64,000 nucleotides of DNA, from positions 310,001 through 374,000 of the forward strand of contig OZ237752.1 in the NCBI GenBank assembly GCA_965178125.1, read 5' to 3'. The stretch comes from Bilabrum cf. latius. Lineage: Eukaryota. The notes beneath the pieces are model-generated. The model was not told where the DNA came from and made no database searches. It was given only the letters and a program-made list of their open reading frames with translations. Both the position numbers and the translations under genes were made by a program. Each line of letters begins with the position of its first letter. Position 1 is the stretch's first letter. This document shows positions 29,601-60,065 of this stretch, one piece after another.

Positions 29601-29638
29601 CGAGCATCAGCGCCTTGCAGGGGATGGTCGACCGGTGA
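26624..29638 (+). CDS. Hypothetical Ala/Gly/Arg-rich low-complexity protein (~913 aa); exons 26624-26722, 26828-27024, 27193-29638
   Basis: Two GTGAG...CAG introns with matching phase. In-frame TAGs at 26663, 27839 and 28097 link ORFs 27182..27841 and 28154..29638. Ends TGA. The 5' exon model is less certain. Confidence 0.62.
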
Positions 29639-40030: not shown

Positions 40031-40343
40031 TCTTGGCTGTTTCGCTCAGCCTCTTTGCTAGGACCGACTCTCGGTTGGGTGTTTACGTTGGTCGTGTTGG
40101 TCGCAAGCTGTGGTGGTTGGGTGCATCTTCGAATATACAAATCCGATATTGGATCGCCTTGTATTTACAACTTGCCTGATTCTACCAGGCACTGTTGGGT
40201 ATATCACGAGTAGTGCTGTGCAACAAATAGATACTACTGTGTCATATTCATCTACTGACTCCGTTTGAACGCCCTAGGATCGCTGCAAGTTTCAGCGGGC
40301 GTCAGTCGTTTGCGACGACCAGGCCGACCTTACTGCCGCAGAT

Positions 40344-41981
40344 ATGGCAGCAGCAGGACCGCCTGGTGGAGGTGCAGGAGGAGAAAAGCCACCTGGGGGA
40401 GGTCTCCCACCGAAGTGCCTCACCAGGCACAAAATTCCGCCGCTTGCAACTGCAAAGCTAGAAACAACGTACGCTGCGGACGGCTAGCCTCTGCAATATC
40501 TGACATGCAACGATGGTGTTACTTTCAGGATTATTAAAACTTTAGCTCCGGCACTTATGGGGAAAGTTAAGCTGTGCTGCCAGTGCTCACCGCAAGAAGA
40601 TGGCACCTTTACGGATACCGAGAACAGATTTGCGGTCAAGATGCTCCTCAAGCACTGCATATAGCGCGGAGTCACAACTGATGGGAGAAAAGTCCAAGAA
40701 GACCCAATGACGGAGGTGAAAGTGCAGGCTTACCTGCAGTCTTAGCGGTGAGTCCATTCGTGTTGCGATCGTGCTTACTTTGAGTCCGTTTTGGTACACC
40801 ATTGCATTCGTTTCATCGACAGGAACTTGAGATAAGGAAACAATTCGCGTCTCTTTCTCTCATGTTGCTTGCGGTTGCTGTTTGCACGCTTTGAACAACT
40901 TTGGTCAGCGGACGCACCGTTCCCAGAAAGCACGTCCGCCGCATCCAAGCCCCCGCACCTCGCACCGATCTTGTCACCGCGCAGAGGAGGGCACAAGAAC
41001 GTGCTTCGATTGCAGCGCGTGTGCGAGGACGAGCACATCATTTACATCATCCTGGAGCTGTGCCCTGGCGGCGACCTCTTCGACAGGGTGCAGCGGGAGC
41101 CCAGCGGCAGGCTCCCAGAGGCAAAGGCAAGGAACTACTTCATCCAGCTGCTTCAGGGCGTCTGCTTCATGCACGGAAGGGGCGTCATCCACAGGGATTT
41201 GTCTCTGGAGAACGCCATGGTGGACGGGAAGGACACGGTCAAGATAATCGATTTCGGGCTCTCTGTGGATAGGTGGTACCAGGCAGCCCCGCCACCGGAC
41301 AAGATGCCTCCAGGGGGCAAGGTAGGCAAGCCATCCTACATGGATCCCGTGATATACTAGAACGGTCCCTACCACCATCACGTCGATCTTTGGTGCATGG
41401 GGGTGATGCTGTTCACGATGCTGTATGGGGTGCCCCCGTACAGGCACCCCAACGCAAGGGCATGCGCATTGTTCAACGAGATATAGAACGGCAGGCTGGG
41501 CGGCCTGCTGACTCGGTGGGGCATGGCCGATTTTGCCTCTCCTGCGGCTCGGGAGCTGGTGATCTCGATGCTGAACCCCGACCCTGCCAAGCGCCCCACG
41601 CTCCCGGACATCCTCCGGAGCCCTTGGATCGCCGAGGATCCCGAGATCAAGAGGATTGGCGGCAGCGTTGTGGCCTCCACACAGGTGGAGCGGGTGCTGC
41701 GAGCTGGTGATGTGATGAATGCCAAGGTGTTTGCGTACAGGCACGGCAGACCCATGCCAGTGGTAGGCAGGCCAGGGCCGGGGGCAGGGGCCAAGGCCAG
41801 GGGCGGTGCGGGCGCTGGCGCTGGCGCGGGTGCGGGTGCGGGTGCGGCACCAATGGATGACGAGGATCCCCCAGGCGGAAGTGGAGGTCCTGCGAGCGGC
41901 GGGGCAGGTGGCGGAGCGGGCGGGGCAGGTGGCGGAGCGGGCGGGGCAGGTGCGGGTGGTTCAGCCGCCATGGAGACATGA
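40344..41981 (+). CDS. Ser/Thr protein kinase, CAMK-like (EDPxxE / HRDLSLEN / GKxxY type), ~466 aa, Gly/Ala tail; exons 40344-40747, 40985-41981
   Basis: Motifs FAVK, EDPMTE, HKNV, GGDLF, HRDLSLEN, DFG, GKPSYMDP, DLWCMGV, DPAKRP. GTGAG..CAG intron in phase 2. In-frame TAGs at 40485, 40662, 40743, 41358, 41484, two of them inside the C-lobe. Ends TGA. Confidence 0.9.
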
Positions 41982-42210: not shown

Positions 42211-43851
42211 TCACGACTCATCCCGCATGACACCCTGTCCCTCGGCCGCCCCATTGCCTTCTGCCGCTGCTGCTCCCGAGCAACTGCTGCCGGACGCTGC
42301 CGACTCATCGCGCATGGGAACACAGCCCTAGTTCATGGGGGCTAGTGCTGGAGCTGGAGCTGGAGCTGGAGCTGGAGCTGGAGCTGGAGCTGGAGCTGGA
42401 GCTGGAGCTGACGCTGGCACTGGTGCTGGCGCTGGTACGCCTGATCCAGCCCCAGCCTTTGCCCCGCCTGTCGCTGCCCCACCAGCGGCAGCTCCTGCAG
42501 CCGTCAGCTCGCTGGCATCTGCACCTGCACCTGCACCTGCACCTGCACCTGCACCTGCACCTGCACCTGCATCTGCATCTGCATCTGCACCTGCACCTGC
42601 AGCTATCCGTGCTCGCAGCCCAGCCACGTGCCAGGCGTGCACCTTGATGTTCTTTGACCTCGCTGTTACCACCACCGACTCTATTGCATTACGAGCCCCT
42701 CTCACACCCATCACCTGCATGGCAGGCTCCCCCATCATAAAGGGGCGTGTCACCATCTCCGCAATGGACGGGCGGTCCTCTGGCCGGGCCCTCGCCACGA
42801 AAAGGCAAAAGTCCTTCGCAGCGTCAGAAAGACCGCTGAATCTCGGCAGCGTCTTGATTGCATCATGCAGCGCAGTCTCACTCAGACTGTACCCATTTTT
42901 GAGCACCCCACCGCACAGGAGACGTACCGCGCACATGCCCAGCGAGTACAGGTCCGCTCGCTCGTCGTACACCTCCCCCCTCGCGACCTCGGGGGCGATG
43001 TAGTTGCCCTTCCCCGCCCAGCCCCGGATGCCATCCGCACCCTTCGGCAACGGACCACCATCGGGCGCCCTCGTCACACCCCTGGGAGGCTGCAACCACC
43101 TGTCCACGGCCTGCCCCGGGTCGATGATGACCCCCTCGCCGTCGTCTGCCAGCACCGAGTTCTCGAGAGACACGTCACGGTGCAGCACTCCCACACAATG
43201 CATGTGGTGCAGCCCCTTCGCCAGGCCATAGAAAGCCTTGCGAGCGGCTGTCTCGGACATGCCATCAAGGGCCAGTGCGACGACATCGGAAGCGGCGTAG
43301 AATGGCATCATGATATAATGGTACTCGTCGTCCTGCCCACTCTCCAGAACGGAGCAAATATTCGGATGCTACCTGTACTCGTGAAATGAAGGCATAAGAG
43401 CTAATAGTTAGGATGTGTGCTACCTGCGCTTGGCTGCTGCACATACCTACGCCATCCACGTCGCTGTTGCTTCGTCTCACCCAGTTTGCCAGCCTGTATG
43501 CACATAATCCAGAATTCGGACCTCATTAATCGGATCCTCCTTCGTAGGCATGCCCTTAGTCGTCCTCTTGGAAGCAATCAGCGAAAGCTTTGAACGCTTG
43601 ACAACGTAGCCTGAGGAATTGCCACCTGCGGCTTGTGGGCAAACCTCGTACACACCGGGCACGTCAGGCTTCTCGAAGCACTCAGCACAATACCATATGT
43701 CACCCATCATCGTCTTGAACAGTCTCTTGACGCGCTGGACTACCTTTTGCCCGTTCACGCACAGTAGCTTGCCCCTTGCAACAAATCTACTGTCACGCCG
43801 TGTACTCTAGAATGCCGTCAGGCAATTTACAACCATTGGTTGCTTTGACAT
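42211..43851 (-). CDS. Divergent Ser/Thr kinase (paralog A; DPG instead of DFG), ~510 aa, with AG/AP-repeat tail; exons 43851-43481, 43372-42211
   Basis: Motifs YVVK, EDPINE, G-Q(TAG)-HPNI, HRDVSLEN, IIDPG, GKGNYIAPE, DLYSLG, EDRP. Intron 43480-43373 has GTGAG, a CTAAC branch point and CAG. TAGs at 43807, 43369, 42328. Ends TGA at 42211-42213. Confidence 0.87.
42346..42601. repeat. Coding hexamer microsatellites (GCTGGA)n and (GCACCT)n encoding AP and AG dipeptide runs in the kinase tail
   Basis: Directly visible at ~42346-42408 and ~42518-42601. Confidence 0.9.
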
Positions 43852-44181
43852 GACTATATACGATCTCTTTTGCTTGAATGTTTAGGTACTCCTTCGACTT
43901 TTACGTTGAAAGGAGTGCCGAGAACCGCGTTTCCTCGAATCCGTCAGATGCCTCATGGCCGGACTCGACCGGAGCAAATTCGCCGCCTGAGACGGTGGCT
44001 AGTTTGGCGTAACAATTCCTTGATTTATGATTCTCAAAGTCAACCCGAGCCGGAGATAAAGGGGATTAAAGGCAGCTGCAAGTGTCGATTGTACACGCAC
44101 TTCACCACCCGCTGATCACTCCACCGAAAGTCAGACTCAGCTGCGGCTCTCCACGACACCCCCCCTGCACTCGCCGCACGA

Positions 44182-47100
44182 TTAAAAATGTAAAGCGCTC
44201 TCCAGCAGTGCCTCCAACTGCGAGCACGGCCGCCCAGCGGATCGCAGCTGGGACAGCAGATCGGTCCCGGGTACTGCAGTACCCACCGCGCCCTCGGGGG
44301 GATGCATGGCCAGCGAGGCAACCAGGGAGACAGCAGCACAGGCAGCGCCATGCCCTGCAGATCCCATGCGCACCTCCCACGCCTCCACCAGCACCCTCAC
44401 GCACTCATCATGGCCCCCGAGCACGGCCGCCATCAGCGGACCGCTCAACCAGCCCGAGTGACCAGGCCCCGGGACATCCAACACTGCCGCTGCCACTGCC
44501 ACCGGGCCACGAACCTCCATCCCACCCGCCAGCTTGCCCAGCCTCAGCCGCTTGGCCAGCTCCAGCGGCCTGCCCTCCTTGGCAGCTCGGTGCACCATGG
44601 CAGCATCTCGTTTGGCCTCCACGGCCCTCCTCCACCGGGCCAAAGGCAGGATCCTCGGGTCAATAAACTCCCGGATGAGCTTGGCCGTGGCTGTCTTGCC
44701 CCTGCAGTCTGCTTCCTCTGCTGGGGTGCGTCCGTCCTGCGGCAGTAAGTGACAGCACATAATACGTTCAGAGGTATGTCAGCAAGCTGATCTGTCGAAT
44801 CAATCCCAAAACAACCCATCTCACCTTGTTCTTGACCGTCCTGCTGGCTCCGGCCCGCAGCAGAGCGAGAGCCGCGGCATCCCTGCCACTGAAGGCGGCT
44901 TGATGGAGAGGGGTGCCCCTGTACTGCGGAATCAAGTAGCCAAAGATATCCATTATCATCTCAGGGCGAATGCCAACCCACAATCATGTTCAAGGTCCGC
45001 AGGAGAGGCGGCGAGGAGCAGCTAGATTGACGTGGATCTATCGATTTCCCGGTTCCTAGAAAAGCGTGGCGTGCTCCGACCTGATCGCGAGCGCAGCCAC
45101 CCAATAGCATGATGGGCCTGGGCGACGAGCACAATACTTGGAGCAAGAAACTGCTTCGGCTATGGACTCAGTTGATTCACTATCTCGATTTTGCACACAG
45201 GCCCGCTGATTCCGATGGCATAAATCTCATCGTTTAGCTCCTCCTACATCATGAACTGCCTCAGCTCCCAAGACACAAGCGCTCATCGACCCCCGCACGA
45301 CCAGGCCGCACCCTTCCCATGCGAAGTCACAGAAGGAACACCGACTCCCATGCATCCAATCATCCCATCTATTTCATACATCACATCAACTCACCTAGCC
45401 GTCAGCGTTCACATTGGCCCCCGCTGCAACCAGCACACCCACCAAGTCGGCGTAGCCCTCTCTGGCTGCCCAGCCCAGGGGGGTGTACTGGCCCTGTGAG
45501 GAAGGAAAGTGAGGGACGTTACGGGATGTGATGGGATGCCAATGGAAGGCAACAAGGGAAAACAGCGAATCGAAGTCAGAAACAGAGCATCGACGCCACG
45601 CAATCCACCCATGGACGGGCCTCGGGCCCCCACAGAATCCGCTGCACCCGCTCGCCCCAGCACCAAGCCGGCACTGGCACCATTCCAGCATATCCACCCC
45701 AAGTCACAAATACAACCGCACAAACAGAACACTAGACTATCCACCCATCTATCCAGGACTGCGGCAAGGCCGCCCGGCGGTCATGGTCGCAAGTTAGGCG
45801 AAGCGCAGTCGGCTGAAGGCGGTAGATCGCGACTGTGAGATTGTGTGCAACTTGCACCCGTAAGACGCAGCTCCATAAGATGACTCAACATCTGGTTGGA
45901 TCGCCTTCTTCTTCGCCCTGCATCCCGAGCTATCCCGGGCTCCAAGTCACAAGCGCTTCTCACGACCACCTCACGACCAGGCCGCACCCTTCCCATGCGA
46001 AGTCACAGGGAACACCAACTCCCATGAATCCAATCATCCCAGCCATACATACATCGCAACAACTCACTTTGCCTTCAGCGTTCACATTGGCCCCCGCTGC
46101 CACAAGCGCACGCACCACGTCGGCATGGCCCTCACTGGCTGCCCAGCCCAGGGGGGTGTCCTTGCGCTGTGAGGAAGGAAAGCGAGGGGCGGCCAAAACA
46201 GGTGAATGGGAAGAGATGGCAATAGGAAGCAACACGGGAAAACAGCGAACTGAAGTCAGAAACAGAGCCTCGACGCCGCGCAACCCAACCACGGACTGGC
46301 CTTTGGCCCCCGCACGTTCCGCTGTTCTCACTCGCCCCAGCACCAAGCCGACACTGGCACCATTCCAGCATATCCACCCCAAGTCACAAATACAACCGCA
46401 CAAACAAAACACCAGACTATCCACCCATCCATCCAAGACTGCGGCAAGGCCGCCCGGCGGGCATGGTCGCAAGTTAGGCGAAGCGCAGTCGGCTGAAGGC
46501 GGTAGATCGCGACTGTTGGATTGTGTGCAACTTGCACCCGTAAGACGCAGCTCCATAAGATGACTCAACATCTGCTTGAATTGCCTTCCTGTTCCGCTTG
46601 CATCCCGAGCTATCCCGGCTCCAAGGCACAAGCGCTCCTCGGCCACCTCACAAACACTCACATAGCCCTCAGCATCAACATTGGCCCCCGCTGCCACAAG
46701 CGCAGCCACCACGTCGGCATTGGCTGCCCTGTGCAGCGGGGTGTCCTTGCTCTGCGAGGAAGGAAAGCGAGGGACGGCCAAGGGGGGTATGAAGGGATGG
46801 CAATGAAAGGCCAACAAGGGAAAGCCGCGAACTGAAGTTAGAAACAGAGCATCGGCGCCGCGCAATCCACCCATGGACGGGCCTCTGGCCCCCACAGGTT
46901 CCGCTTCTCCCACACGACACAGCATCAAGCCAGCACTGGCACCATTCCAGCATATCCATCCCAAGTCCCAAGTACGATCGCCCAACCAAATCACAAGACA
47001 CCCCATGCAGCCATCCAGGACTGCGGCGAGGCCGCCAAGCGGTCATGGTCGCAAACAAGGCGTTACGCAGTCGGCTGATGGCAATCGACCGAGACTGTTG

Positions 47101-50100
47101 GATTGTGTGCAACTTGTGCCCATCCAGCAAAGCTTCATGCGCGGATTCATCATCTGGTTGGATCGCCTTCTGGCTCCTCCTGCATCCCAAGCTATCCCGG
47201 CTCCAAGCCACGAGCGCTCATCGACCACCTCGCGACCAGGCCGCACCCTTCCCATGCCGAGTCACAGGGAACACTAACTCCCATGCATCCAACCATCCCA
47301 GCCACATACACACTTCACGGCAACTCACTTTATTCTCAGCATTCACATTGGCCCCTGCTGCCACAAGCGCACCCACCACGTCGGCATGGCCCTCACTGGC
47401 TGCTGCATGAAGCGGGGTATGCTTGTACTATGAGGAAGGAAAGCGAGGGACGGCAAGAAGGAATGCGAAAGCATGGCAACGGAAAGGCAAAGAGGGGGGG
47501 GGGAAGCAGCGAACGGAAGTTAGTGCCATAGCATCGGCGCCGCGCAATCCACCCATGGACGGGCCACGGGCCCCCACAGGCCCCGCTGCACCCACTCGCC
47601 CAAACACCAAGCCGGCACTGGCACCATTCACGCATATCCACCCCAAGTCCCATAATCAAATACACAACCAAATCGCCAAACCATCCAGACATCCATCCAA
47701 GACTGCGGCAAGGTCGCCGGCGGTCTTGGCCCCAAGCCGGGCGAAGTGCAGTCCACTGATGGCAATCGATCGAGACTGTTGGATTGTGTGCAACTTGTGC
47801 CCAGCAGACGCAGCTCAATACGAGGACTCATCATCTAGTTGGATCGCATTCTGGCTCCTCCTGCATCCCAAGCTATCCCGGCTCCAAGCCACAAGCGCTC
47901 ATCGACCACCTCACAACCAGGCCGCACCCTTCCCATGCCGAGTCACAGGGAACACTAACTCCCGTGCATCCAACCATCCCAGCCACATACACACTTCACG
48001 ACAACTCACTTTGTTCTCAGCATCAACATTGGCCCCCGCTGCCACAAGCGCAGCCACCACGTCGGCGTGGCCACATCTGGCTGCAACAAAGAGCGGTGTG
48101 GGCTTGTCCTGTGAGGAAGGAAAGCGAGGGACGGCGACGGAAGGCAGAAAAGGGGTAGCAATGAAAAGGCAAAGAGGGGAAGCAGGGAAGGAAAGCCAGT
48201 ACCAGAGCATCGGCGCCGCGCAATCCACCCATGGACGGGCCTCTGGCCCCCACAGGTTCCGCTTCTCCCACACGACACAGCATCAAGCCGGCACTGGCAC
48301 CATTCACGCATATCCACCCCAAGTCCCATAATCAAATACACAACCAAATCGCCAAACCATCCAGACATCCATCCAAGACTGCGGCAAGGTCGCCCGGCGG
48401 TCTTGGCCCCAAGCCGGGCGAAGCGCAGTCCACTGATGGCAATCGATCGAGACTGTAGGATTGTGTGCAACTTGTGCCCAGCAGACGCAGCTCGATACGA
48501 GGACTCATCATCTAGTTGGATCGCATTCTGGCTCCTCCTGCATCCCAAGCTATCCCGGCTCCATGACACTAGCGCTCATCGACCACCTGCGACCAGTCCG
48601 CACCCTTCCCATGCCGAGTCACAGGGAACACCAACTCCCATGCATCCAATCATCCCATCTACACATACACACTTCACGGCAACTCACTTTGTTCTCAGCA
48701 TCAACATTGGCCCCTGCTGCCACAAGCGCACCCACCACGTCGGCGTGGCCCTTTTCGGCTGCCCTGTGCAGCGGGGTGTACTAGTCCTGGTAGGAAACAA
48801 AGTGAGGGGCGCCCAAAGGGAATTCAAAGAGATGGCAATAGAAAGGTAAAAAAAGGGGGGGGGGGGGGGGGCAGCGAACGGAAGGTACTACCAGAGCATC
48901 GGCGCCGCGCAATCCACCCATGGACGGGCCTCCGCCCCCCACAGGTTCCGCTGCACCCACACGCCCAATCACCAAGCCGGCACTGGCACCATTCACGCAT
49001 ATCCACCCCAAGTCCCAAATACACAACCAAATTACCAGACCACCCAGACATCCATCCATCCAAGACTGCAGTTTGGCCGCCCGGCGGTCATGGTCGCAAG
49101 TAGGCGAACCCCAGTCGGCTAAAACGGCGATAGATCGAGACTGTTGGATTGTGTGCAACTTGTGCCCAGCAGACGCAGCTCGACAAGAGGATTCATCATC
49201 TAGTTGGATCGCATTCTTCTTCGCCCTGCATCCCGAGCTATCCCGGCTTCCAAGACACAAGCGCTCATCGACCACCTCACGGCCTGGCCGCACCCTTCCC
49301 ATGCTGAGTCACAGAGAACACTAACTCCCATGCATCCAATCATCCCATCTATGCATCCATGCATACATCACGGCAACTCACTTTGTTCTCAGCATCAACA
49401 TTGGCCCCGGCTGCCACAAGCGCAGCCACCACGTCGGCGTGGCCCTTTTCGGCGGCCCAGCCAAGCGGGGTATCCTTGTACTGTGAGGAAGGAAAGCGAG
49501 GGACGGCCAAAACAGGTGAATAGGAAGGAAAGGCAATGAAAAGGCCAAAAGGAGGAACAGCGAACGGGATGTAGAACCAGAGCATCGGCGCCGCGCAATC
49601 CACCCATGGACTAGCCTCGGGCCACTGGCCCCATTCCAGCATATTTACCTCAGTCCCGAATTATACTCCACGACCAAATCACCAGACACTTCATACAGCC
49701 ATCCATCCAAGACTGCGGCAAGGCCGCCCGGCGGTCATGGTCGCAAGTTAGGCGAAGCACAGTCGGCTAAAACGGCGATAGACCGCAACTTTTAGATTAT
49801 GTGCATAGTACCCCCAGCAGACGCAGCTCGATACGAGGACTCATCATCTGGCTAGATCGCCTTTTGGTTCCTCCTGCATCCCAAGCTATCCCGGCTCCAT
49901 GACACTAGCGCTCATCGACCACCTCACAACCAGGCCGCACCCTTCCCATGCCGAGTCACAGGGAACACCAACTCCCATGCATCCAATCATCCCATCTATG
50001 CATACATCACAGCAACTCACTTTGTTCTCAGCATTCACATTGGCCCCCCCTGCCACTAGCGCACCCACCACGTCGGCGTGGCCCTTTTCGGATGCAAAGT

Positions 50101-53100
50101 GCAGCGGGGTGCTCTCGACCTATAAGGAAGGAAAGCGAAGGACGGCCAAAACAGGTGAATGGGAAGGGATGGCAGTGGAAGGCAACAAAGAGGGGGGGGG
50201 GGGGCAGCGAACGGAAGGTACTACCAGAGCATCGGCGCCGCGCAATCCACCCATGGACGGGCCTCCGCCCCCCACAGGTTCCGCTGCACCCACACTTCCA
50301 ATCACCAAGCCGGCACTGGCACCATTCACGCATATCCACCCCAAGTCCCAAATACACAACCAAATTACCAGACCACCCAGACATCCATCCATCCAAGACT
50401 GCGGCAAGGCCGCCCGGCGGTCATGGTCGCAAGTAGGCGAACCCCAGTCGGCTAAAACGGCGATAGATCGAGACTGTTGGATTGTGTGCAACTTGTGCCC
50501 AGCAGACGCAGCTCGACAAGAGGATTCATCATCTAGTTGGATCGCCTTTTGGTTCCTCCTGCATCCCGAGCTATCCCGGCTCCAAGCCACAAGCGCTCAT
50601 CGACCACCTCACGGCCTGGCCGCACCCTTCCCATGCCGAGTCACAGGGAACACTAACTCCCATGCATCCAATCATCACAGCCATACATCCATCACGGCAA
50701 CTCACTTTGTTCTCAGCATCAACATTGGCCCCGGCTGCCACAAGCGCAGCCACCACGTCGGCGTGGCCCTTTTCGGCGGCCCAGCCAAGCGGGGTATCCT
50801 TGTACTGTGAGGAAGGAAAGCGAGGGACGGCAAGAAGGGAATGTGAAGGCCAAACATGAAGCAGCAAATGGAAGTCAGAACCAGAGCATCGGCGCCGCGC
50901 AATCCACCCATGGACGGGCCTCTGGCCCCCACAGGTTCCGCTGCACCCACTCGCACCAGCATCAAGCCGGCACTGGCACCATTCCAGCATATCCACCCCA
51001 AGTCCCATATACAATAACTAAAATACACAATCCTATCGGCGACCAGACCATCGGCGTTCATGATCGCAAGCTGGGCGAAGTGCAGTCCGCTGAAGGCAAT
51101 CGATCGAGACTGTGAGATTGTGTGCAACTTGCACCCAGCAGACGCAGCTCGACAAGAGGACTCATCATCTGGTTGGATCGCCTTCTTCTTCCGCCTGTAT
51201 CCCGAGCTATCCCGGCTCCCAAGACACAAGCGCTCCTCGACCACCTCACGACCAGGCCGCACTCTTCCCATGCCGAGTCACAGGGAACACCAACTCCCAT
51301 GCATCCAATCATTCCAGCCATTAATGCATCACATCATCTCACCCAGCCCACGGCATTCACATCGGCCCCCGCCGCCACAAGCACACCCACCACGTCGGCA
51401 TTGGCTGCCAAGTGCATCGGTGTGCGGTTGTACTGTGAGGAAGGAAAGCGAGGGACGGCAAGAAGGGAATGTGAAGGCCAAACATGAAGCAGCAAATGGA
51501 AATCAGAACCAGAGCATCGGCACCGCGCAATCCACCCATGGACGAGCCTCTGGCCCCCACAGGTTCCGCTGCACCCACTCGCACCAGCATCAAGCCGTCA
51601 CTGGCACCATTCCAGCATACCCACCCCAAGTCCCATATACAATTACAAATACACAATCCTATCGGCGACCAGACCATCGGCGGTCATGGTCGCAAGCTGG
51701 GCGAGGCGCAGTCGGTTGAAGGCGGTAGATCACGACTGTTGCATTGTGTGCGTGCATTATGCGCCCAGTAGACGCAGATCGATCAGCGGGCTCCGCATCT
51801 GGTTATATCGCCTTCTTCTTCCGCCTGTATCCCGACCTATCCCGGCTCCCAAGACACAAGCGCTCCTCGACCACCTCACGACCAGGCCGCACCCTTCCCA
51901 TGCCGAGTCACAGGGAACACCAACTCCCATGCATCCAATCATTCCAGCCATTAATGCATCACATCAACTCACCTAGTCCTTAGCATTCACATTGGCCCCC
52001 GCTGCCACAAGAGCAGCCACCACGTTGGCATTGGCAGCCCTGTGCAGCGGGGTGCTCGCGCCCTATAAGGAAAAAAAGCGGAGGACGGCAAAGGGTGGAC
52101 GAGAAGAGATGGCAATGGGAAAACAAATAGCCAAAGCAGTGAGCAGAAGGTAGCACCAGAGCATCGGCGCCGTGCAATCCACCCAAGGACGAGACTCGGG
52201 CCTCCACAGGTTCCGCTGCACCCACTCGCCCAAACACCAAGCCGACACTGGCACCATTCCAGCATATCCACCCCAAGTCACAAATACAACCGCACAAACA
52301 AAACACTAGACTATCCACCCAGCTATCCAGGACTGCGGCAAGGCCGCCCGGCGGTCATGGTCGCAAGTTAGGCGAAGCGCAGTCGGCTCGAGGCAATCGA
52401 TCGAGACTGTGCAACTTGCACCCAGCAGACGCAGCTCGACGAGAGGATTCATCATCTGGTTGGATCGCATTCTGGTTCCGCCTGCATCCCGAGCTATCCC
52501 GGCTCCAAGCCACAAGCGCTTCTCACGACCACCTCACGGCCAGGCCACACCATTCCCATGCCGAGTCACAGAAGGAACACCAACTCCCATGCATCCAATC
52601 ATCCCACCTGAACGATATACATCGCAGCAGCTCACCTCATTCACAGCGTTTGCATCCGCCCCCGCTGCCACAAGCGCACCCACCACGTCGGCGTGGCCCT
52701 TTTCGGCTGCCAAGTGCAAAGGGGTGTGACAATCCTGTAAGTAAGCAAAGCGAGGGACGGTCGAAGATATAGCAATGGAAAGGCTAAATGGGAGGCGGGG
52801 GGTGGGAGGGAGCTGAAGGTAGTACCAGAGCATCGGCGCCGCGCAATCTACCCATGGGCAGGCCTCGGGCCCCCACACGTTCCGCTGTTCCCACTCGCCC
52901 AATCACCAAGCCGGCACTGGCACCATTCCCGCATATCCACCACAATCCCGAATTATACTCCACGACCAAATCACCAGACACTTCATACAGCCATCCATCC
53001 AAGACTGCGGCAAGGCCGCGCGGCGGGCATGGTCGCAAGTTAGGCGAAGCGCAGTCGGCTGAAGGCGGTAGGACGCGACTGTTGGATTGTGTGCATAATG

Positions 53101-55891
53101 CGCCCTGCAGACGCAGCTCAACTCGATGATTCAGCATCTGGATGAATCTCCTTCTAGTTCCGCCTGCATCCCGAGCTATCCCGGCTCCCAAGACACAAGC
53201 GCTTCTCACGACCAGGCCACAACCTCCCAATGCCAAGTCACAAGATACATTGACTCCCATGCATCCTATCATCCCAGCCATATATACATTACATAATCTC
53301 ACCCAGTCCTCAGCATTCACATTGGCCCCCGCTGCCACAAGCGCACCCACCACGTCTGCATTGGCTGCCAAGTGCAGCGGGGTGCGCTCGTCCTGTGAGG
53401 AAGGAAAGCGAGAGACGGCAAGAAGGAATGACAAGGGATGGCAATATGAATTCAACAAGGGAAAGCAGCGAACGCAAGTCAGAACCCTAGCATCGGCGTA
53501 GGTCAATCCACCCATGGACGGGCCTCTCGCCCCCACAGAATCCGCTGCACCCACATGCCCCAGCACCAAGCCGGCACTGGCACCATTCCAGCATATCCAC
53601 CCCCAGTCCCATAAACAAATACACGACCTAATCCCTTGACCATCCGTCCAGCCATCCATCCAGGACTATGGCAAGACCCACCGGCCGTCATGCTCGCAAG
53701 CGGGGCGAAGCGCAGTCGGCTGAAGGCGGTAGATCGCGACTACAGATTGTGTCTATAATGCGCCCAGCAGACGCAGCTTGATGACAGGACTCATCATCTG
53801 GTTGGATCGCCGTCTTCTTCCGCCTGCATCCCGACCTATCCCGGCTCCCAAGACACAAGCGCTCCTCGACCACCTCACGGCCAGGCCGCACCATTCCCAT
53901 GCCGAGTCACAGAAGGAACACCAACTCCCATGCATCCAACCATCCCATCCATATACACATCATATCAACTCACCTTGTCTTCAGCATTCACATTGGCCCC
54001 CGCTGCCACAAGCGCACCCACCACATCGGCGTTGCCCTTTTCGGCTGCCACGTGCAGCGGTGTGTTCTTGTCCTGTGAGGAAGGAAAGCGAGGGAAGGCA
54101 AGAGGGTTGGGAAGTGATGGCAATGGAAGGCCAACAAGGCGAAGCAGCGAAGGCGAGTGGGAACCAGAGCATCGGAGCCGCGCAATCCACCCATGGACGG
54201 GCCTCTGGCCCCCACAGGTTCCGCTCCACCCACTCGCCCCAGCACCAAGCCGGCACTGGCACCATTCCAGCATATCCACTCCCAGTACCAAATACGATCG
54301 CACGACCAAATCATCAGACCATCCGTCCATCCGGGACTGCGGCAAGGCCGCCCGGCGGCCATGGTCCCAAGCTAGGCGAAGCGCCGCGGCAGTCGGCTGA
54401 AGGCGGTAGCTCGCAAATGTTGGATTCTGTGCATAGTGCGCCAAGCGGACGCAGCTCGATACGAGAACTCAGCGTCTGGTTAGATCGCCTTCTGGTTCCA
54501 CTTCACATCCCGACCTATCCCGGCTCCAAGACGCCCTTCCGTTTTGGTGCCCCTGGAAGCAGCCCTGGCCCAATGCACGCTGTCACACCCACTCAAGTCC
54601 GATTGGATGCGGCTGAGTACATATGTACAGCTAGTTAGAGGGATGTACTACTGCTGCACGATATCGATGAGCATAGCCTATGCTTCCCGCTGGCATCCAG
54701 CATCGGGGTGTTCGCAAGCCTGCTAGCCAGCCGTGGCAGCCTCATTCTGCCGGCGGGCGAAAGGAAGAGCTTGCTTGCGGTCCAAGTGCAATGCAATCAG
54801 CTCCAGAGACATTTCACCGGCCCCGTCTGCTTGTTGTCAGTATGGCACAACCCAATGCCCCCATGCTCCACAGCGCAGCCGCGCCGATCGAATGTCTCAT
54901 GGAGATGAAAGCAATTCACGGCCCAGTGAAGAGATCCACTCCAGTCATACACGAACAAAACGTCAAACACTGCCCGTCTGCTACCTGCAACCTATTGGTG
55001 CAGAAATCATTGCCAAGTATCCCACTACGCCGGAAGGAGGATTCCTCGCTCAAAGACACACCCCGCTGCATGAACCAGCTTAGTACCCACACGAAACGTG
55101 AGACAATACAAACTAGGGGCACACCACGAGCAGGTACCATGCATCCAAAACCATGTTAGAACCGATCTAGTTGCCCGTGATGGGCCTTTGAAGAGTGCTT
55201 TCACGTCGCCAAGAAGAAGAAGAAAGGCAACGACATTTGGAGCAAGATTCGCATCCGTGATAGACATGATTCACATATTCTGTGTAGGGACTCACGTCAT
55301 TTTGGGCATCGACTGCTCCCCCAGCCTCCACCAGCGGCACGATGCACGAGTTGTGTCCGTTGTGGCTCGCCCAATGCAGCGGGGTCCATTCCTGGCTGCC
55401 ACGAGGGCCCTGCGATCCTAGCAACGGCGCACACTTAAATATGACTATAGAACATGAACGCCGTAGCTTGTGGTTGGGCCAGTGGAGGGAAATAGCCAGG
55501 CACTCCAGATTGGTGGCGAAAAGTGACCAACGGCACGGCAATCCGTGATTCTGGCCGATATCAACACCCATATTTGCCAGTTAAAATGTGTGCACACTCA
55601 CGTCTCCTGTCACGTTCGCACTCGTCCCAGATGCCAGCGCAGACTGCAGGGCCTCCAAATGGCCGTTCTTGGCCGCTTCAAGAAGAGCAGCTGACCTGCA
55701 GAAGGTGTGAATTGCCATACATACCATTTCGCTTACTTCAATGTGAAGCGGAAACTGCAATTATCCTACACATTCGGAACACAGCTATCGAGCAATCCAG
55801 ACACCAAGTACACACGAATCGAGTCATAAATGCGTGCCCTTACTATCCATCAAGGAGACGATATGCATGGAACATTACAGAGTACTTACAT
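44182..55891 (-). CDS. Ankyrin-repeat protein (~731 aa, 19 exons, one ankyrin repeat per exon)
   Basis: Exons (-): 55891-55890 (AT), 55695-55602 (N-cap SAALLEAAKNGHLEAL), 55391-55296, 54072-53974, 53392-53303, 52734-52636, 52062-51973, 51432-51343, 50804-50706, 50119-50021, 49480-49382, 48786-48688, 48108-48010, 47427-47329, 46751-46662, 46166-46068, 45493-45395, 44923-44825, 44736-44182. Repeat exons are bounded by YAG and GTGAG, phase 0, with TPLxxAAxxGHADVV..LVAAGANV motifs. TAGs at 51973, 48781, 45395. Ends TAA. Confidence 0.85.
45260..54535. repeat. Tandem array of 14 exon+intron cassettes (~590-690 bp each) with homologous introns
   Basis: Recurring intron blocks (GCGCCGCGCAATCCACCCATGGACGGGCC, CCAAGCCGGCACTGGCACCATTC, GACTGCGGCAAGGCCGCCCGGCGG, CATCCCGAGCTATCCCGGCTCC) surround each 90/99-bp ankyrin exon. 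Confidence 0.95.
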
Positions 55892-56269
55892 GGTCCAAGG
55901 ATGCTGGCGAATGCGCCGTTGTTGTCGGCTAGTTTGAAGGGAAGTATCAGAAATCAGAAATAATTATCGGTTTAATTTTAGTTCTCGAATGAAGCAAAGC
56001 TCCACAGGACGACTGTTCTCTCTCTCAAGAGACAGCCTCAACAAGAAACTAGCGTAGATCTCTAAAAAAAAAACTAGCGAGTTGATCCATTCCGACTGGC
56101 GCCGCGCACATGCCAACAACGGAACGACCAGGAAGGACGGTCGCACGTCACGCACGATACGTGTTTGCAATCTGGAATCCGGGGCCAGGAATCCCGGGAC
56201 TCGGGCCCACCGCCCATGGCAAGCTGTTGTCTTTACCCCTAAACGTTTCAGGCCAAATACACTCATCAG

Positions 56270-57019
56270 TTACGATGTGTCTCCCCGCATCGCTTGCTGC
56301 CCCTCATCGCTCGGATCCTCGGGATCCCCCGTGCTATCCCGCATCGACGCTGCGCCTGGCTCTGGCTCTGGCTCTAGCTCTTGCTCTTGCTCTTGCTCTG
56401 CACCTGTGCCGGCCTAGCCGTCCCGACCAGCACCACCTCCAGGCCCAGTACCAGGAGTGCCAGCCGCAACAGACAGGGGTGTGGTCCCGGCCGCCACCGA
56501 TGACCCGCCTGCCCCCCCAACTCCCGGCCTACCTTCTGCCAAAGCAGCTGTGGATCCAACCCGAGGACCCCCCGCTTGTTCCACAGCTGCCGCCGCCCCG
56601 CCCATCGCTGCCCCCGATGCACCCGCGGTTGCTGGCCCCGGGCCTGCCCCCGGTGCCATGGCCCACGCCTTCCTGTCAGTGCCACCAGCGGCTCGCAGCC
56701 TCAGGTGCTCCACGTACCTGGCGTGCACCTGGCCGTTGCGCTTCGCGGCGATCGCTATGCCTCTCTCGATGGCCAAACAGGCTGCGTATCTGCCCATGGC
56801 TGCCATGCTTGGATCTCCCATCATGAAGGGGTGTGTGGCGATCTTCGCCATGGAAGGCCGCTAGCTTGCAACTTCCCGCACCATGAAAGTGCAAAAATCC
56901 TGCGCCGCGGGGGGTAGCCTCATGTACCCTGGGAGCTCTCTGATCTGCCTGTGGAGCTCCTTCTCTCCCAGCGACTGGCCCTTGCGCGGCATGTTACCGC
57001 ACAAGAGCCCCACCGCGCA
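56270..57019 (-). pseudogene. 3' half of kinase paralog B, disrupted by a mobile element
   Basis: CAVGLLCG...AAQDFC...AS-Q(TAG)-RPSMAKIATHPFMMGDP aligns with paralog A (CAVRLLCG...AAKDFC...EDRPSIAEMVTRPFMMGEP). TAGs at 56861 and 56414. Ends TAA at 56270-56272. Confidence 0.85.
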
Positions 57020-57191: not shown

Positions 57192-57501
57192 AAAAGTTTT
57201 CGAGAGGCCTATCGGCTGGCTCCAAGGGCAATCGGGATGTGTTCGTCTCAGGTTGATCCCTATAAGGAAAAAGTAAACATAACCCATGTCAAACGCACGC
57301 TGGTATATGCACTTATTGCATAGTTGCTGCCAAAGGTCTGCTGCGAGTGCATTTCACCCGGCACTGCTTCATAACGCACACGGCACGTCAAGGCACAACA
57401 CTGCGCAACTCGACTTATGCTTGTATTGCATCCCAAAAACCATAGCAATGCCGCTAGTGAATCGTAAATCAAGATTATCATTAACATTGTGTCGCAAACG
57501 G

Positions 57502-60026
57502 GGCCTGCCACTGGCCACCTTGCTGCTGTGGGCAGCTTGGCGAGCCTGGGTGGGTTGCTGCGCGTCGTCCATTTGACGTCCGCTTGCTTTGTCTGTGATG
57601 GCGCCTTGATGCGCCTGCCACTGGCCACCTTGCTGCTGTGGGCAGCTTGGCGAGCCTGGGTGGGTTGCTGCGCGTTGTCCATTTGACGTCCGCTAGCCTT
57701 TGTCTGTGATGGCGCCTTGATGCGCCTGCCGCTGGCCGCCTTGCTGCTGTGGGCAGCTTGGCGAGCCTGGGTGGGTTGCTGCGCGTCGTCCATTTGACGT
57801 CCGCTTGCTTCTTCTTTGATGGCGCCTTGATGCGCCTGCCACTGGCCGCCTTTGCTGCTGTGGGCAGCTTGGCGAGCCTGGGTGGGTTGCTGCGCGTCGT
57901 CCACTTGACGTCCGCTTGCCTTTGTCTGTGATGGCGCCTTGATGCGCCTGCCACTGGCCACCTTGCTGCTGTGGGCAGCTTGGCGAGCCTGGGTGGGTTG
58001 CTGCGCGTCGTCCATTTGACGTCCGCTTGCCTTTGTCTGTGATGGCGCCTTGATGCGCCTGCCACTGGCCGCCTTGCTGCTGTGGGCAGCTTGGCGAGCC
58101 TGGGTGGGTTGCTGCGCGTCGTCCACTTGACGTCCGCTTGCCTTTGTCTGTGATGGCGCCTTGATGCGCCTGCCGCTGGCCGCCTTGCTGCTGTGGGCAG
58201 CTTGGCGAGCCTGGGTGGGTTGCTGCGCGTCGTCCACTTGACGTCCGCTTGCCTTTGTCTGTGATGGCGCCTTGATGCGCCTGCCACTGGCCACCTTGCT
58301 GCTGTGGGCAGCTTGGCGAGCCTGGGTGGGTTGCTGCGCGTCGTCCATTTGACGTCCGCTTGCCTTTGTCTGTGATGGCGCCTTGATGCGCCTGCCACTG
58401 GCCGCCTTTGCTGCTGTGGGCAGCTTGGCGAGCCTGGGTGGGTTGCTGCGCGTCGTCCATTTGACGTCCGCTTGCCTTTGTCTATGATGGCGCCTTGATG
58501 CGCCTGCCACTGGCCGCCTTTGCTGCTATGGGCAGCTTGGCGAGCCTGGGTGGGTTGCTGCGCGTCGTCCATTTGACGTCCGCTTGCCTTTGTCTTTGAT
58601 GGCGCCTTGATGCGCCTGCCACTGGCCGCCTTTGCTGCTGTGGGCAGCTTGGCGAGCCTGGGTGGGTTGCTGCGCGTCGTCCATTTGGCGTCCGCTTGCC
58701 TTTGTCTGTGATGGCGCCTTGATGCGCCTGCCACTGGCCGCCTTTGCTGCTGTGGGCAGCTTGGCGAGCCTGGGTGGGTTGCTGCGCGTCGTCCATTTGA
58801 CGTCCGCTTGCCTTTGTCTGTGATGGCGCCTTGATGCGCCTGCCATTGGCCACCTTGCTGCTGTGGGCAGCTTGGCGAGCCTGGGTGGGTTGCTGCGCGT
58901 CGTCCATATGACGTCCGCTTGCCTTTGTCTGTGATGGCGCCTGACTGCGCCTGCCACTGGCCGCCTTTGCTGCTGTGGGCAGCTTGGCGAGCCTGGGTGG
59001 GTTGCTGCGCATCGTCCATTTGACGTCCGCTTGCCTTTGTCTGTGATGGCGCCTGAATGCGCCTGCCACTGGACGCCTTCGCTGCTGTGCGCAGCTTGGC
59101 GAGCCTGGGTGGGTTGCTGCGCGTCGTCCATTTGACGTCCGCTTGCCTTTGTCTGTGATGGCGCCTTGATGTGCCTGCCACTGGCCGCCTTTGCTGCTGT
59201 GCGCAGCTTGGCGAGCCTGGGTGGGTTGCTGCGCGTCGTCCATTTGACGTCCGCTTGCCTTTGTCTGTGATGGCGCCTTGAAGCGTCTGCCATTGGCCAC
59301 CTTGCTGCTGTGCGCAGCTTGGCGAGCCTGGGTGGGTTGCTGCGCGTCGTCCATTTGACGTCCGCTAGCCTTTTTCTGTGATGGCGCCTTGATGCGCCTG
59401 CCACTGGCCGCCTTTGCTGCTGTGCGCAGCTTGGCGAGCCTGGGTGGGTTGCTGCGCGTCGTCCATTTGACGTCCGCTAGCCTTTTTCTGTGATGGCGCC
59501 TTGATGCGCCTGCCACTGGCCGCCTTTGCTGCTGTGGGCAGCTTGGCGAGCCTGGGTGGGTTGCTGCGCGTCGTCCATTTGACGTCCGCTTGCTTTGTCT
59601 GTGATGGCGCCTTGATGCGCCTGCCACTGGCCGCCTTTGCTGCTGTGGGCAGCTTGGCGAGCCTGGGTGGGTTGCTGCGCGTCGTCCATTTGACGTCCGC
59701 TAGCCTTTGTCTGTGATGGCGCCTTGATGCGCCTGCCACTGGACGCCTTCGCTGCTGTGGGCAGCTTGGCGAGCCTGGGTGGGTTGCTGCGCGTCGTCCA
59801 TTTGACGTCCGCTTGCTTTTGTCTGTGATGGCGCCTTGATGCGCCTGCCACTGGCCGCCTTTGCTGCTGTGGGCAGCTTGGCGAGCCTGGGTGGGTTGCT
59901 GCGCGTCGTCCATTTGACGTCCGCTTGCCTTTGTCTATGATGGCGCCTTGATGCGCCTGCCACTGGCCGCCTTTGCTGCTGTGGGCAGCTTGGCGAGCCT
60001 GGGTGGGTTGCTGCGCGTCGTCCATT
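57502..60026. repeat. Tandem array, 110-112-bp unit, ~22-23 copies, inside the element
   Basis: Unit GCGCCTTGATGCGCCTGCCACTGGCCGCC...GACGTCCGCTTGCCTTTGTCTGTGATG; starts at 57601, 57712, 57822, 57934 and onward. Unit length is not fixed at 3n. Confidence 0.96.
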
Positions 60027-60065
60027 GGATAACTTAAGGTTGTGTTACGATGCTCAACCGCGACA

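What the first reader, a model, noticed from the sequence alone, without database searches (positions are those of the whole stretch)
42211..56272. UAA appears to remain a stop: uncoupled UAG/UAA meaning
Seen: kinase paralog A ends EGQGVMRDES-TGA (42211) and paralog B ends at the equivalent place with EGQQAMRGDTS-TAA (56270). The ankyrin gene ends on TAA (44182). The ~8,800-codon giant frame has 27 TAG and many CAA but no TAA. The other six gene models end on TGA. Known: UAA and UAG are usually reassigned together (code 6), because a UUA-anticodon tRNA wobbles onto UAG and eRF1 recognises both. UAG-only reassignment is rare (e.g. the fornicate Iotanema, some phyllopharyngean ciliates). Inference: the organism should have a dedicated tRNA-Gln(CUA), no tRNA(UUA), and an eRF1 that reads UAA/UGA but not UAG. 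Only two TAA termini are visible, so this rests on limited evidence.
Basis: partly seen in the sequence, partly recalled or inferred. Interest (0 to 1): 0.9.

Follow-up and report, generated by a model that had tools for sequence, protein, structure and literature searches.

The report
UAG codes, UAA still stops
In this GC-rich eukaryotic stretch the stop codon UAG is read as an amino acid, most likely glutamine, while UAA and UGA still end genes, a rare but already known kind of genetic code.

Summary
Kinase A ends ...MRDES-TGA (42211-42213). Kinase B ends at the aligned place ...MRGDTS-TAA (56270-56272). The ankyrin gene ends on TAA (44182-44184). The 8,813-codon giant frame has 27 TAG, 51 CAA and no TAA.

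New evidence:
- Contigs of three RNA-like runs splice GT..AG introns and carry five kinase-C TAGs unchanged, so TAG is in mRNA.
- In four frames whose limits do not depend on TAA (11,657 codons) there are 39 TAG and 0 TAA. With the CAA/CAG ratio 11.6 TAA are expected (P = 4e-5; 7e-12 to 0.011 over 13 codon pairs).
- RNA-supported splicing gives one open ankyrin frame that ends on the TAA. Transcript contigs of the other runs have TGA at that codon.
- The only two TAGs in strongly conserved columns align with Gln (47 of 56 and 86 of 128 homologues). The other 25 lie in variable columns, and one scoring scheme ranked Thr first.

Best reading: a table-15-type code (UAG = Gln; UAA and UGA stop). 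The tRNA(CUA) and eRF1 predictions could not be tested, because there is no tRNA in the window and no genome is held. This is a new member of a known kind. The nearest named homologues are stramenopiles.

The parts
1..26442 (+). Giant single-exon IPT/TIG-repeat and transmembrane gene. It is open at the 5' window edge, has 27 in-frame TAG and no TAA, and stops on TGA at 26440-26442.
   Evidence: The C-terminal 1,200 aa have 1,238 homologues at E<=1e-3, and they align to within about 10-30 residues of their own ends.
21016..21018 (+). TAG codon 7006 of the giant gene, in a conserved Gln column.
   Evidence: Gln in 47 of 56 aligned homologues, and in 37 of 38 where local identity is at least 7 of 21.
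25111..25113 (+). TAG codon 8371 of the giant gene, in a conserved Gln column.
   Evidence: Gln in 86 of 128 aligned homologues, Ser in 11 and Thr in 9.
27176..29638 (+). Low-complexity frame with 2 TAG that ends on TGA. The stop just upstream of it is a TAA.
   Evidence: No Pfam family.
30246..34169 (+). Orphan membrane-protein frame of 1,307 aa with 7 TAG and 0 TAA, with TGA at both ends.
   Evidence: No Pfam family. No homologue in the word-index search.
34890..36584 (-). Gfo/Idh/MocA oxidoreductase gene with 1 TAG and TGA at both ends. Homology to solved enzymes continues at least 9 residues past the TAG.
37109..40030 (+). Ku80-like gene (Ku beta-barrel and Ku_PK_bind domains) with 4 TAG and TGA at both ends.
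40344..40746 (+). Kinase C exon 1, counted from the first ATG. It holds 3 in-frame TAG at 40485, 40662 and 40743.
   Evidence: Covered with 0 differences by contigs of runs X5, X6 and X7.
40747..40983 (+). Kinase C intron of 237 nt with GT..AG ends. It holds the in-frame TGA (40749) and TAA (40833).
   Evidence: The joint is present in X5, X6 and X7 and absent from the DNA-like run X1. Frame check.
40984..41981 (+). Kinase C exon 2 (CAMK-like kinase domain) with 2 TAG at 41358 and 41484, ending on TGA.
42211..43407 (-). Kinase paralog A, main exon, with 2 TAG. It stops on TGA at 42211-42213. The TAA at 43408-43410 lies in the upstream intron.
44182..44735 (-). Last exon of the ankyrin-repeat gene. 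The TAA stop is at 44182-44184.
   Evidence: Variant contigs of X5, X6 and X7 read C at 44183 on the + strand, which makes TGA on the coding strand.
44824..46166 (-). Three upstream ankyrin exons (44824-44923, 45395-45492, 46067-46166), each about one ANK repeat. They are separated by introns of 471 and 574 nt.
   Evidence: CT..AC joints on the + strand in X5, X6 and X7. The joined frame is open down to the TAA.
56270..57019 (-). Kinase paralog B, C-terminal half only, next to a satellite. It has 2 TAG and stops on TAA at 56270-56272.

Best explanation
The window comes from a GC-rich, intron-containing eukaryote whose nuclear code reads UAG as a sense codon, most likely glutamine. UAA and UGA remain terminators. 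This is the pattern of NCBI translation table 15.

Shown here:
- UAG sits inside real, expressed coding sequence.
- UAA is absent from coding frames and closes two genes.
- UGA closes seven.

Inferred, not shown:
- Decoding is by a tRNA with anticodon CUA, which cannot pair with UAA. This is the argument of Panek et al. 2017 (passages read).
- eRF1 has lost or weakened recognition of UAG but keeps UAA and UGA.

UAG makes up about 9% of Gln-type codons and lies mostly at poorly conserved sites. That fits a fairly recent takeover by CAG-to-TAG changes at tolerant positions, but this last point is inference.
For: UAG is a sense codon:
- There are 27 in-frame TAG in the 8,813-codon giant frame, which otherwise has no stop.
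- There are 39 TAG in 11,657 codons of four frames whose limits do not depend on TAA.
- Five TAGs of kinase C lie in contigs of runs X5, X6 and X7. Those contigs skip a 237-nt GT..AG intron and differ from the window at 0 places. The DNA-like run X1 lacks the joint.
- Homology of the oxidoreductase to solved enzymes runs on past its TAG.
- Homologues of the giant protein align right to its TGA, 442 codons after the last TAG.

Gln as the meaning:
- The two TAGs in strongly conserved columns align with Gln in 47 of 56 and 86 of 128 homologues.
- In the BLOSUM calibration the TAG columns score far below true Ser, Thr, Asn, Leu, Glu, Lys, Tyr, Trp and Ala codon columns, and below every draw of Arg columns. 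They fall within the range of CAA (Gln) columns: Q sum -8.1 against a CAA mean of 0.8 and minimum of -9.1.

UAA is a stop:
- There are 0 TAA among 39 UAR codons. 11.6 are expected from the CAA/CAG ratio (P = 4e-5). P is 0.011 or less for all 13 NNA/NNG pairs.
- TAA is not rare in the DNA: 8-41 per other frame of the giant region, and 11.4 per kb, both strands counted, in 5.2 kb of non-coding sequence.
- RNA-supported joints give a single open ankyrin frame that ends on TAA 44182-44184.
- The contigs of X5, X6 and X7 over that place read TGA at the same codon.
- Kinase paralogs A and B end at the aligned residue on TGA and TAA, with unrelated DNA after the stop.
- In-frame TAAs at frame borders fall inside introns.
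Against: - Only two TAA termini are seen. One of them (kinase B) is a truncated copy beside a satellite and may be a pseudogene.
- The frame after kinase B's TAA stays free of TGA for 139 more codons, with 4 further TAA. Openness alone therefore does not prove termination there.
- The ankyrin frame would gain only 14 codons before a TGA if its TAA were read through.
- The TAA-to-TGA difference comes from contigs with 7-10 other differences, so they may be a paralog or another strain. The DNA-like run X1 has no contig over that spot.
- For Gln, 25 of 27 giant-gene TAGs lie in variable columns. A log-odds score over all 27 columns ranked Thr first (-2.4) and Gln seventh (-25.0). The same score named the right residue in 151 to 200 of 200 draws for ten control codons.
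- Codon 5704 sits at a Thr-dominated motif position: Thr in 19 of 33 homologues and in 17 of 22 internal repeats.
- The Q sum of -8.1 is below every draw of CAG columns (minimum -2.3).
- No tRNA or eRF1 sequence could be examined.
Confidence: 0.72

Rival explanations
1. UAG is a sense codon and UAA a stop, but UAG codes for a residue other than Gln (Ser or Thr, for example), or is decoded ambiguously.
For: - The log-odds score over all 27 TAG columns ranks Thr, Asn and Ser above Gln.
- BLOSUM sums are S -0.2, T -3.4 and Q -8.1.
- Three TAGs (codons 1961, 2786, 5704) sit where the IPT motif usually reads GG-T.
- UAG = Ser with UAA kept as a stop is cited for Scotinosphaera, and UAG = Leu for a rhizarian, in PMC11687900 (passages read).
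Against: - Columns of true Ser and Thr codons in the same alignments score +24 to +28 and never below +11. The TAG columns score about 0.
- Ser also 'wins' in 281 of 300 draws of CAA (Gln) columns, so it is the default winner for variable columns.
- The only two strongly conserved TAG columns are Gln: 47 of 56, with no Ser or Thr, and 86 of 128.
Confidence: 0.12
2. The code is context-dependent. UAG is read as sense inside genes but can also terminate near transcript ends, or UAA has a dual meaning, as in Condylostoma or Blastocrithidia.
For: - Only nine termini are visible, and frames were read through TAG by construction.
- Kinases A and B have a TAG 38 and 50 codons before the assigned stop.
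- The oxidoreductase has an unexplained tail of about 170 aa with no matched homology after its TAG. Solved homologues end roughly 5-15 residues after the aligned position.
Against: - No gene needs TAG as its end.
- Homology continues past the TAG in the oxidoreductase.
- In the giant gene, homologues align up to the TGA.
- The A and B tails after their TAGs keep the shared ...MRD.. and EGQ..MR..S motifs.
- TAA never occurs inside 11,657 codons.
Confidence: 0.08
3. This is ordinary code 6. Both UAA and UAG mean Gln, and UAA is merely rare because the genome is GC-rich. The two TAA 'termini' are read through to the next TGA.
For: - GC is about 0.6.
- The frames after both TAAs stay TGA-free for 14 and 139 codons.
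- UAR = Gln is the common variant and is reported for several eukaryote lineages (passages in PMC5304391 and PMC11687900).
Against: - 0 of 39 UAR codons are TAA, although A-ending codons make up 11-48% of every NNA/NNG pair and 23% for Gln (P = 4e-5).
- The paralogs end at the aligned place on TGA and TAA.
- TAA in the window is replaced by TGA at the same codon in other runs' contigs.
- GC at codon positions 1/2/3 drops from 0.79/0.69/0.54 before kinase B's TAA to 0.55/0.46/0.59 after it. The same drop is seen after the TGA stops of kinase A and the giant gene.
Confidence: 0.06
4. Artefact: the TAGs are sequencing or assembly errors, lie in unrecognised introns, are removed by RNA editing, or the genes are pseudogenes.
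For: Some copies are clearly degenerate: the kinase B and D fragments beside satellites.
Against: - Transcript contigs of three runs from two studies carry the kinase C TAGs with 0 differences.
- A 26-kb frame with 27 TAG but no TGA or TAA cannot be a decayed gene or a chain of introns, since the other frames hold 52-196 TGA.
- Two TAGs sit at conserved Gln columns.
Confidence: 0.02

Closest known systems
Iotanema spirale (fornicate): UAG = Gln, UAA kept as stop (Panek et al. 2017, PMC5304391, passages read)
   Same: UAG alone is reassigned, to Gln, and UAA remains a terminator. The predicted mechanism is the same: a tRNA with anticodon CUA, which cannot read UAA.
   Different: The lineage is unrelated. 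The passages describe UAA as the dominant stop there, whereas here TGA closes 7 of 9 genes. In Iotanema the eRF1 change (T32G in the GTS motif) was seen; here eRF1 could not be examined.
Phyllopharyngean ciliates Hartmannula sinica and Trochilia petrani, and Protocruzia tuzeti: UAG = Gln with UAA and UGA stops, translation table 15 (McGowan et al. 2024, PMC11687900, passages read)
   Same: The codon table is the same. The same kind of evidence was used: conserved Gln columns and C-terminal alignments that end on UAA, not UAG.
   Different: This window is 57-65% GC (4-kb windows) with introns of 88-574 nt and satellites. From recall, not from a call, that is unlike ciliate macronuclear DNA. The nearest named homologues of the giant gene are oomycetes and Cantina, not ciliates.
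Rhizarian exLh (UAG = Leu) and the green alga Scotinosphaera (UAG = Ser), both with UAA kept as stop (passages in PMC5304391 and PMC11687900)
   Same: UAG and UAA have uncoupled meanings in a nuclear genome.
   Different: A different amino acid. Here the conserved TAG columns are Gln, and the Leu and Ser calibrations are not met.
Code 6 lineages: UAR = Gln in many ciliates, Hexamita, Streblomastix, ulvophytes and Amoeboaphelidium protococcarum (passages read)
   Same: UAG is read as Gln.
   Different: Those lineages also read UAA as Gln. Here 0 of 39 UAR sense codons are TAA, and TAA closes genes.

Membership tests
Table-15-type nuclear code (UAG = Gln; UAA and UGA stop) | In-frame UAG inside bona fide coding sequence and present in the mRNA | tested here: met
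   27 TAG in the giant frame. Five kinase C TAGs lie in spliced contigs of three runs with 0 differences.
Table-15-type nuclear code (UAG = Gln; UAA and UGA stop) | UAG aligns with conserved Gln in homologues | tested here: inconclusive
   Met at the 2 strongly conserved columns (47 of 56 and 86 of 128 Gln). The other 25 columns are variable, and a pooled log-odds score ranks Thr first and Gln seventh. The BLOSUM calibration leaves Gln as the only residue type whose own codon columns look like the TAG columns.
Table-15-type nuclear code (UAG = Gln; UAA and UGA stop) | No in-frame UAA in coding sequence | tested here: met
   0 TAA in 11,657 codons bounded independently of TAA. 5 to 36 are expected if UAA were synonymous with UAG.
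Table-15-type nuclear code (UAG = Gln; UAA and UGA stop) | UAA used at genuine gene ends | tested here: met
   2 of 9 termini. The ankyrin frame is verified by RNA-supported joints, and TGA sits at the same codon in other runs' contigs. Kinase B ends at the position aligned to kinase A's TGA. The sample is small.
Table-15-type nuclear code (UAG = Gln; UAA and UGA stop) | UGA is a stop and never a sense codon | tested here: met
   7 of 9 termini are TGA, and there are 0 in-frame TGA in 11,657 codons.
Table-15-type nuclear code (UAG = Gln; UAA and UGA stop) | A tRNA-Gln with anticodon CUA and no tRNA with anticodon UUA | not testable with these tools
   No tRNA gene in the window. No genome is held.
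Table-15-type nuclear code (UAG = Gln; UAA and UGA stop) | eRF1 N-domain altered so that UAG is not recognised | not testable with these tools
   eRF1 is not in the window and no genome is held.
Code 6 (UAA and UAG = Gln) | In-frame UAA at Gln positions alongside UAG | tested here: not met
   0 of 39 UAR codons are TAA (P = 4e-5 with the CAA/CAG ratio).
Context-dependent stop/sense codes (Condylostoma or Blastocrithidia type) | The reassigned codon also terminates at true gene ends | tested here: inconclusive
   0 of 9 genes need TAG as their end. Homology runs past the TAG in the oxidoreductase and the giant gene. Nine genes are too few to rule it out.

The most novel reading that the evidence does not exclude
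This would be an independent and evolutionarily young UAG-to-Gln takeover in a lineage where no nuclear code change has been described, namely a heterotrophic stramenopile-like protist.

- The giant gene's named homologues are all oomycetes or Cantina.
- Its closest relative (57% identity, unnamed metagenome protein) runs 2,705 aa as one uninterrupted prediction.
- UAG makes up only about 9% of Gln-type codons.
- UAG sits almost only at unconstrained sites.

Together these would catch a stop-codon reassignment at an early stage, with TGA rather than UAA as the main terminator.
Probability: 0.35. Interest if true: 0.75.

Novelty: new member of a known kind. Interest (0 to 1): 0.6.

Why it matters
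UAA and UAG nearly always change meaning together. Per the passages read in PMC5304391 and PMC11687900, only a handful of nuclear lineages are known to split them. Each new case tests the idea that a CUA-anticodon tRNA plus a change in eRF1 is enough to split them.

A GC-rich case in which TGA is the main stop and UAG sits mostly at unconstrained sites would be useful for studying how such a takeover begins.

There is also a practical consequence. Any annotation of this genome with the standard code or with code 6 will be wrong. The standard code cuts the giant gene into 28 pieces. Code 6 would run proteins on past their TAA stops.

Tried and rejected
- **Whole-genome tests** (tRNA, eRF1, genome-wide stop counts): no genome is held. 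ARAGORN found no tRNA in the window.
- **More DNA from the same organism:** a metagenome scan with kinase A gave 8 loci that were only 26-30% identical, so not this organism.
- **Word-index homologue searches:** all three found nothing. They were Ku80 whole, the orphan 30246..34169 frame and the Ku80 core. No TAG columns could be read in those genes.
- **PDB alignments** of kinase C, Ku80 and the oxidoreductase: the TAGs fall in variable or unaligned columns.
- **Codon-usage log-odds** to test coding after the TAAs: the score barely separates real genes from non-coding sequence here. Only the GC drop was used.
- **Self-comparison of the giant protein's repeats:** the first script returned nothing. 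The second showed repeats too diverged to tell what TAG replaced.
- **Atlas search on the Ku core:** it only confirmed Ku and gave no usable taxonomy.
- **Run search:** no RNA holder is listed on record. Runs X5-X7 were treated as RNA-like only because their contigs skip GT..AG intervals that X1 keeps.
- **RNA-like depth after kinase B's TAA:** depth is 0 for X5 and X6 and 1.23 for X7 in bin 55687-56267, just past the TAA, while X1 covers it. This is a part without cover and is not used as evidence. Likewise, the contig ends about 60-90 nt after the ankyrin stop are at most a weak hint.
- **Ser as the meaning of UAG** (the Scotinosphaera precedent): considered and rejected on calibration.
- **The 57248..60268 'gene':** rejected as a 112-bp satellite.
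- **Literature:** searches listed no paper on a nuclear UAG reassignment in a stramenopile. That covers only the held library, judged from listings and a few passages. Supplements were not opened.
Full report
**What the window is.** The window is 64 kb at 56-65% GC. No whole genome is held for it, and ARAGORN finds no tRNA gene in it.

When TAG is read through, the main frames are these:
- a 26.4-kb frame that is open at the window edge (1..26442, 8,813 codons) and encodes IPT/TIG repeats, Cys-rich repeats and a membrane domain;
- two frames with no Pfam family (27176..29638 and 30246..34169);
- a Gfo/Idh/MocA oxidoreductase (34890..36584, minus strand);
- a Ku80-like gene (37109..40030);
- a CAMK-like kinase C (40269..41981);
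- kinase paralog A (42211..43407, minus strand);
- an ankyrin-repeat gene whose last exon ends at 44182;
- a C-terminal fragment of kinase paralog B (56270..57019, minus strand);
- a fragment of another paralog at the right-hand edge.

The 57.5-62.1 kb region is 112-bp and 107-bp satellite DNA. The long 'frame' there is not a gene.

**The observation.**
- Kinase A ends ...GVMRDES-TGA (42213-42211).
- Kinase B ends ...QAMRGDTS-TAA (56272-56270).
- The ankyrin frame ends ...ALHF-TAA (44184-44182).
- A and B are 36% identical, and their last residues align.
- The giant frame has 27 TAG, 51 CAA, 213 CAG and no TAA. Its only TGA is the last codon. The other five frames of the same DNA each hold 8-41 TAA, 29-75 TAG and 52-196 TGA.
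- Seven genes end on TGA, two on TAA, and none needs TAG.

**TAG is in the mRNA and is read through.**
- Ten public runs were listed for the 34.8-44.8 kb stretch. Nine of them hold all or part of it, and none is on record as RNA.
- I laid four of them on 40000-57400. Contigs of X5, X6 and X7 (two studies) skip GT..AG intervals, and the DNA-like run X1 does not. These intervals are the 237-nt kinase C intron (40747-40983) and ankyrin introns on the minus strand. So these three runs behave as RNA.
- The kinase C intron removes an in-frame TGA and an in-frame TAA, and splicing keeps the frame.
- The spliced contigs cover five in-frame TAGs of kinase C (40485, 40662, 40743, 41358, 41484) with no difference from the window. 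This rules out editing, sequencing error and hidden introns for those sites.
- In the oxidoreductase, similarity to solved enzymes continues at least nine residues past the TAG.
- In the giant gene, homologues align to within a few residues of the TGA, 442 codons after the last TAG.

**What TAG encodes.**
- An all-against-library HMMER search with the last 1,200 residues of the giant protein found 1,238 homologues at E<=1e-3. I aligned the whole giant protein to the best 150 of them.
- Two of the 27 TAG columns are strongly conserved, and both are Gln. Codon 7006 has Gln in 47 of 56 aligned homologues, and in 37 of 38 where the local alignment is good. Codon 8371 has Gln in 86 of 128, with Ser in 11 and Thr in 9.
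- The other 25 columns are variable.
- There is evidence against Gln. A pooled log-odds score over all 27 columns ranked Thr first (-2.4), with Asn and Ser next and Gln only seventh (-25.0). The same score named the right residue in 151-200 of 200 draws for ten control codons. Codon 5704 sits at a Thr-dominated motif position, with Thr in 19 of 33 homologues.
- A BLOSUM-based calibration explains this. Columns of true Ser, Thr, Asn, Leu, Lys, Tyr, Trp and Ala codons give sums of +16 to +90 for their own residue and never fall below +6. Glu columns average +19 (minimum +0.3) and Arg columns +10 (minimum -5.3). The TAG columns give about 0 or less for every residue (S -0.2, T -3.4, Q -8.1).
- Gln is the least conserved residue type in this protein. 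CAA columns average +0.8 for Q (minimum -9.1), and Ser is the nominal winner in 281 of 300 CAA draws.
- So the TAG columns resemble weakly constrained Gln columns and no other tested residue type. They do lie below every CAG draw (minimum -2.3).
- I conclude Gln with roughly 80% confidence. Ser or Thr is the main alternative.

**TAA is not a sense codon.** Four frames have limits that do not depend on TAA, because they are bounded by TGA on both sides or by the window edge. They are the giant gene, 30246..34169, the oxidoreductase and Ku80, together 11,657 codons. They hold 39 TAG and 0 TAA.
- If TAA shared TAG's meaning with the A/G ratio of the Gln codons (89 CAA to 300 CAG), 11.6 TAA would be expected, and P(0) = 4e-5.
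- Over all 13 NNA/NNG pairs, P ranges from 7e-12 to 0.011.
- TAA is common enough in the DNA: 11.4 per kb, both strands counted, in 5.2 kb of non-coding sequence.
- In-frame TAAs at frame borders fall inside introns: kinase C at 40833 and kinase A at 43408.

**TAA ends genes.**
- Joining the ankyrin exons at the RNA-supported joints gives exactly one open frame. It reads ANK repeats and ends on the TAA at 44182-44184. The other two frames have six stops each.
- In X5, X6 and X7, the only contigs over that place read C at 44183 on the plus strand. That makes TGA at the same codon. They also change the preceding Phe codon to Leu.
- Those contigs carry 7-10 other differences, so they are a paralog or another strain. 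X1 has no contig over that spot. The swap is still what is expected of a stop codon.
- Kinases A and B end at the aligned residue on TGA and TAA, and the DNA after the stops is unrelated.
- GC at codon positions 1/2/3 drops from 0.79/0.69/0.54 before kinase B's TAA to 0.55/0.46/0.59 after it. The same drop follows the TGA stops of kinase A and the giant gene.

Weak points:
- Kinase B is a truncated copy beside a satellite.
- Its frame stays free of TGA for 139 codons after the TAA.
- The ankyrin frame would gain only 14 codons if its TAA were read through.
- There are only two TAA termini.

**Mechanism.** Shown: UAG is a sense codon, UAA and UGA are stops, and UAG has a Gln-like placement. Inferred from established knowledge (Panek et al. 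2017, PMC5304391, passages read): a tRNA that reads UAG but not UAA must carry the anticodon CUA, and eRF1 should have lost UAG recognition while keeping UAA and UGA. Neither molecule could be examined here.

**Who it is.**
- Among the 20 best homologues of the giant gene that I looked up, every one that carries an organism name is from an oomycete (Pythium, Aphanomyces, Albugo, Thraustotheca) or from Cantina marsupialis, at 40-46% identity.
- The best hit (57%) is an unnamed metagenome protein of 2,705 aa, predicted as one uninterrupted frame.
- This points to a stramenopile-like protist with no close sequenced relative. It rests on one gene family.

**Comparison with what is known.** The codon table equals NCBI table 15.
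- UAG-only reassignment to Gln is reported for Iotanema spirale, two phyllopharyngean ciliates and Protocruzia tuzeti.
- UAG = Leu is reported for a rhizarian and some ciliate MAGs, and UAG = Ser for Scotinosphaera (passages read in PMC5304391 and PMC11687900).
- Code 6 (UAR = Gln) is reported for Amoeboaphelidium and others. Its defining feature, sense UAA, was tested here and not met.
- Four literature searches listed no nuclear UAG reassignment in a stramenopile. This covers only the held library, and supplements were not seen.

**Verdict.** It is a new member of a known kind of code, possibly in a new lineage. Confidence in 'UAG = Gln with UAA and UGA as stops' is 0.72. The uncoupling itself, whatever residue UAG encodes, I put at about 0.85. 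Interest is 0.6.

Noticed in passing
window 1-4250 (+): The 5' part of the giant gene is about five near-identical tandem copies of a 297-aa (891-bp) unit made of three IPT-like modules. Copies alternate at one residue (V or M), which suggests a 1,782-bp higher-order repeat. This array holds no TAG. The gene runs off the window start, so it is even longer than 8,813 codons.
   Followed up: partly
window 57503-60026; 60060-60408; 61222-62136: Two satellites: a 112-bp unit (22.6 copies, 96% matches) and a 107-bp unit (3.3 and 8.6 copies). All three frames of the 112-bp array are open, which mimics a 1,000-aa gene.
   Followed up: yes
window 44182-55600 (-): The ankyrin gene has roughly one 33-residue ANK repeat per exon of about 99 nt. 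Its introns of about 90-575 nt are themselves repeated, so exon plus intron form a degenerate array of roughly 10 kb. DNA contigs of run X1 show many rearranged joints here, in keeping with a repeat family present elsewhere in the genome.
   Followed up: partly
window 34890-35400 (-): The oxidoreductase frame runs on for about 170 residues of low-complexity sequence past its TAG. Solved homologues end about 5-15 residues after the aligned TAG position, and matched homology stops about 9 residues past it. This could be a real tail, or an intron or alternative end that was missed.
   Followed up: no
window 30246-34169 (+): A 1,307-aa Cys- and Trp-rich multi-pass membrane frame with 7 TAG, including two adjacent TAG codons. 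It has no Pfam family and no homologue in the word-index search.
   Followed up: partly
window 56270-57019 and 63513-63998 (-): Kinases B and D are partial copies of the kinase A family. D is 86% identical to A over 116 residues in the tblastn match (90% over the 109 aligned columns), and it has an intron where A has none. Both lie next to satellite DNA, which suggests recent segmental duplication of this family. DNA and RNA contigs diverge from the window exactly at 57020.
   Followed up: partly
P0002 (unnamed metagenome protein, 2,705 aa): The closest relative of the giant protein (57% identity over 1,186 residues) was predicted as one uninterrupted frame on an 8,971-bp contig. The matching part of the window's gene has 4 TAG. 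The relative may therefore use the standard code. Its DNA could not be fetched.
   Followed up: no
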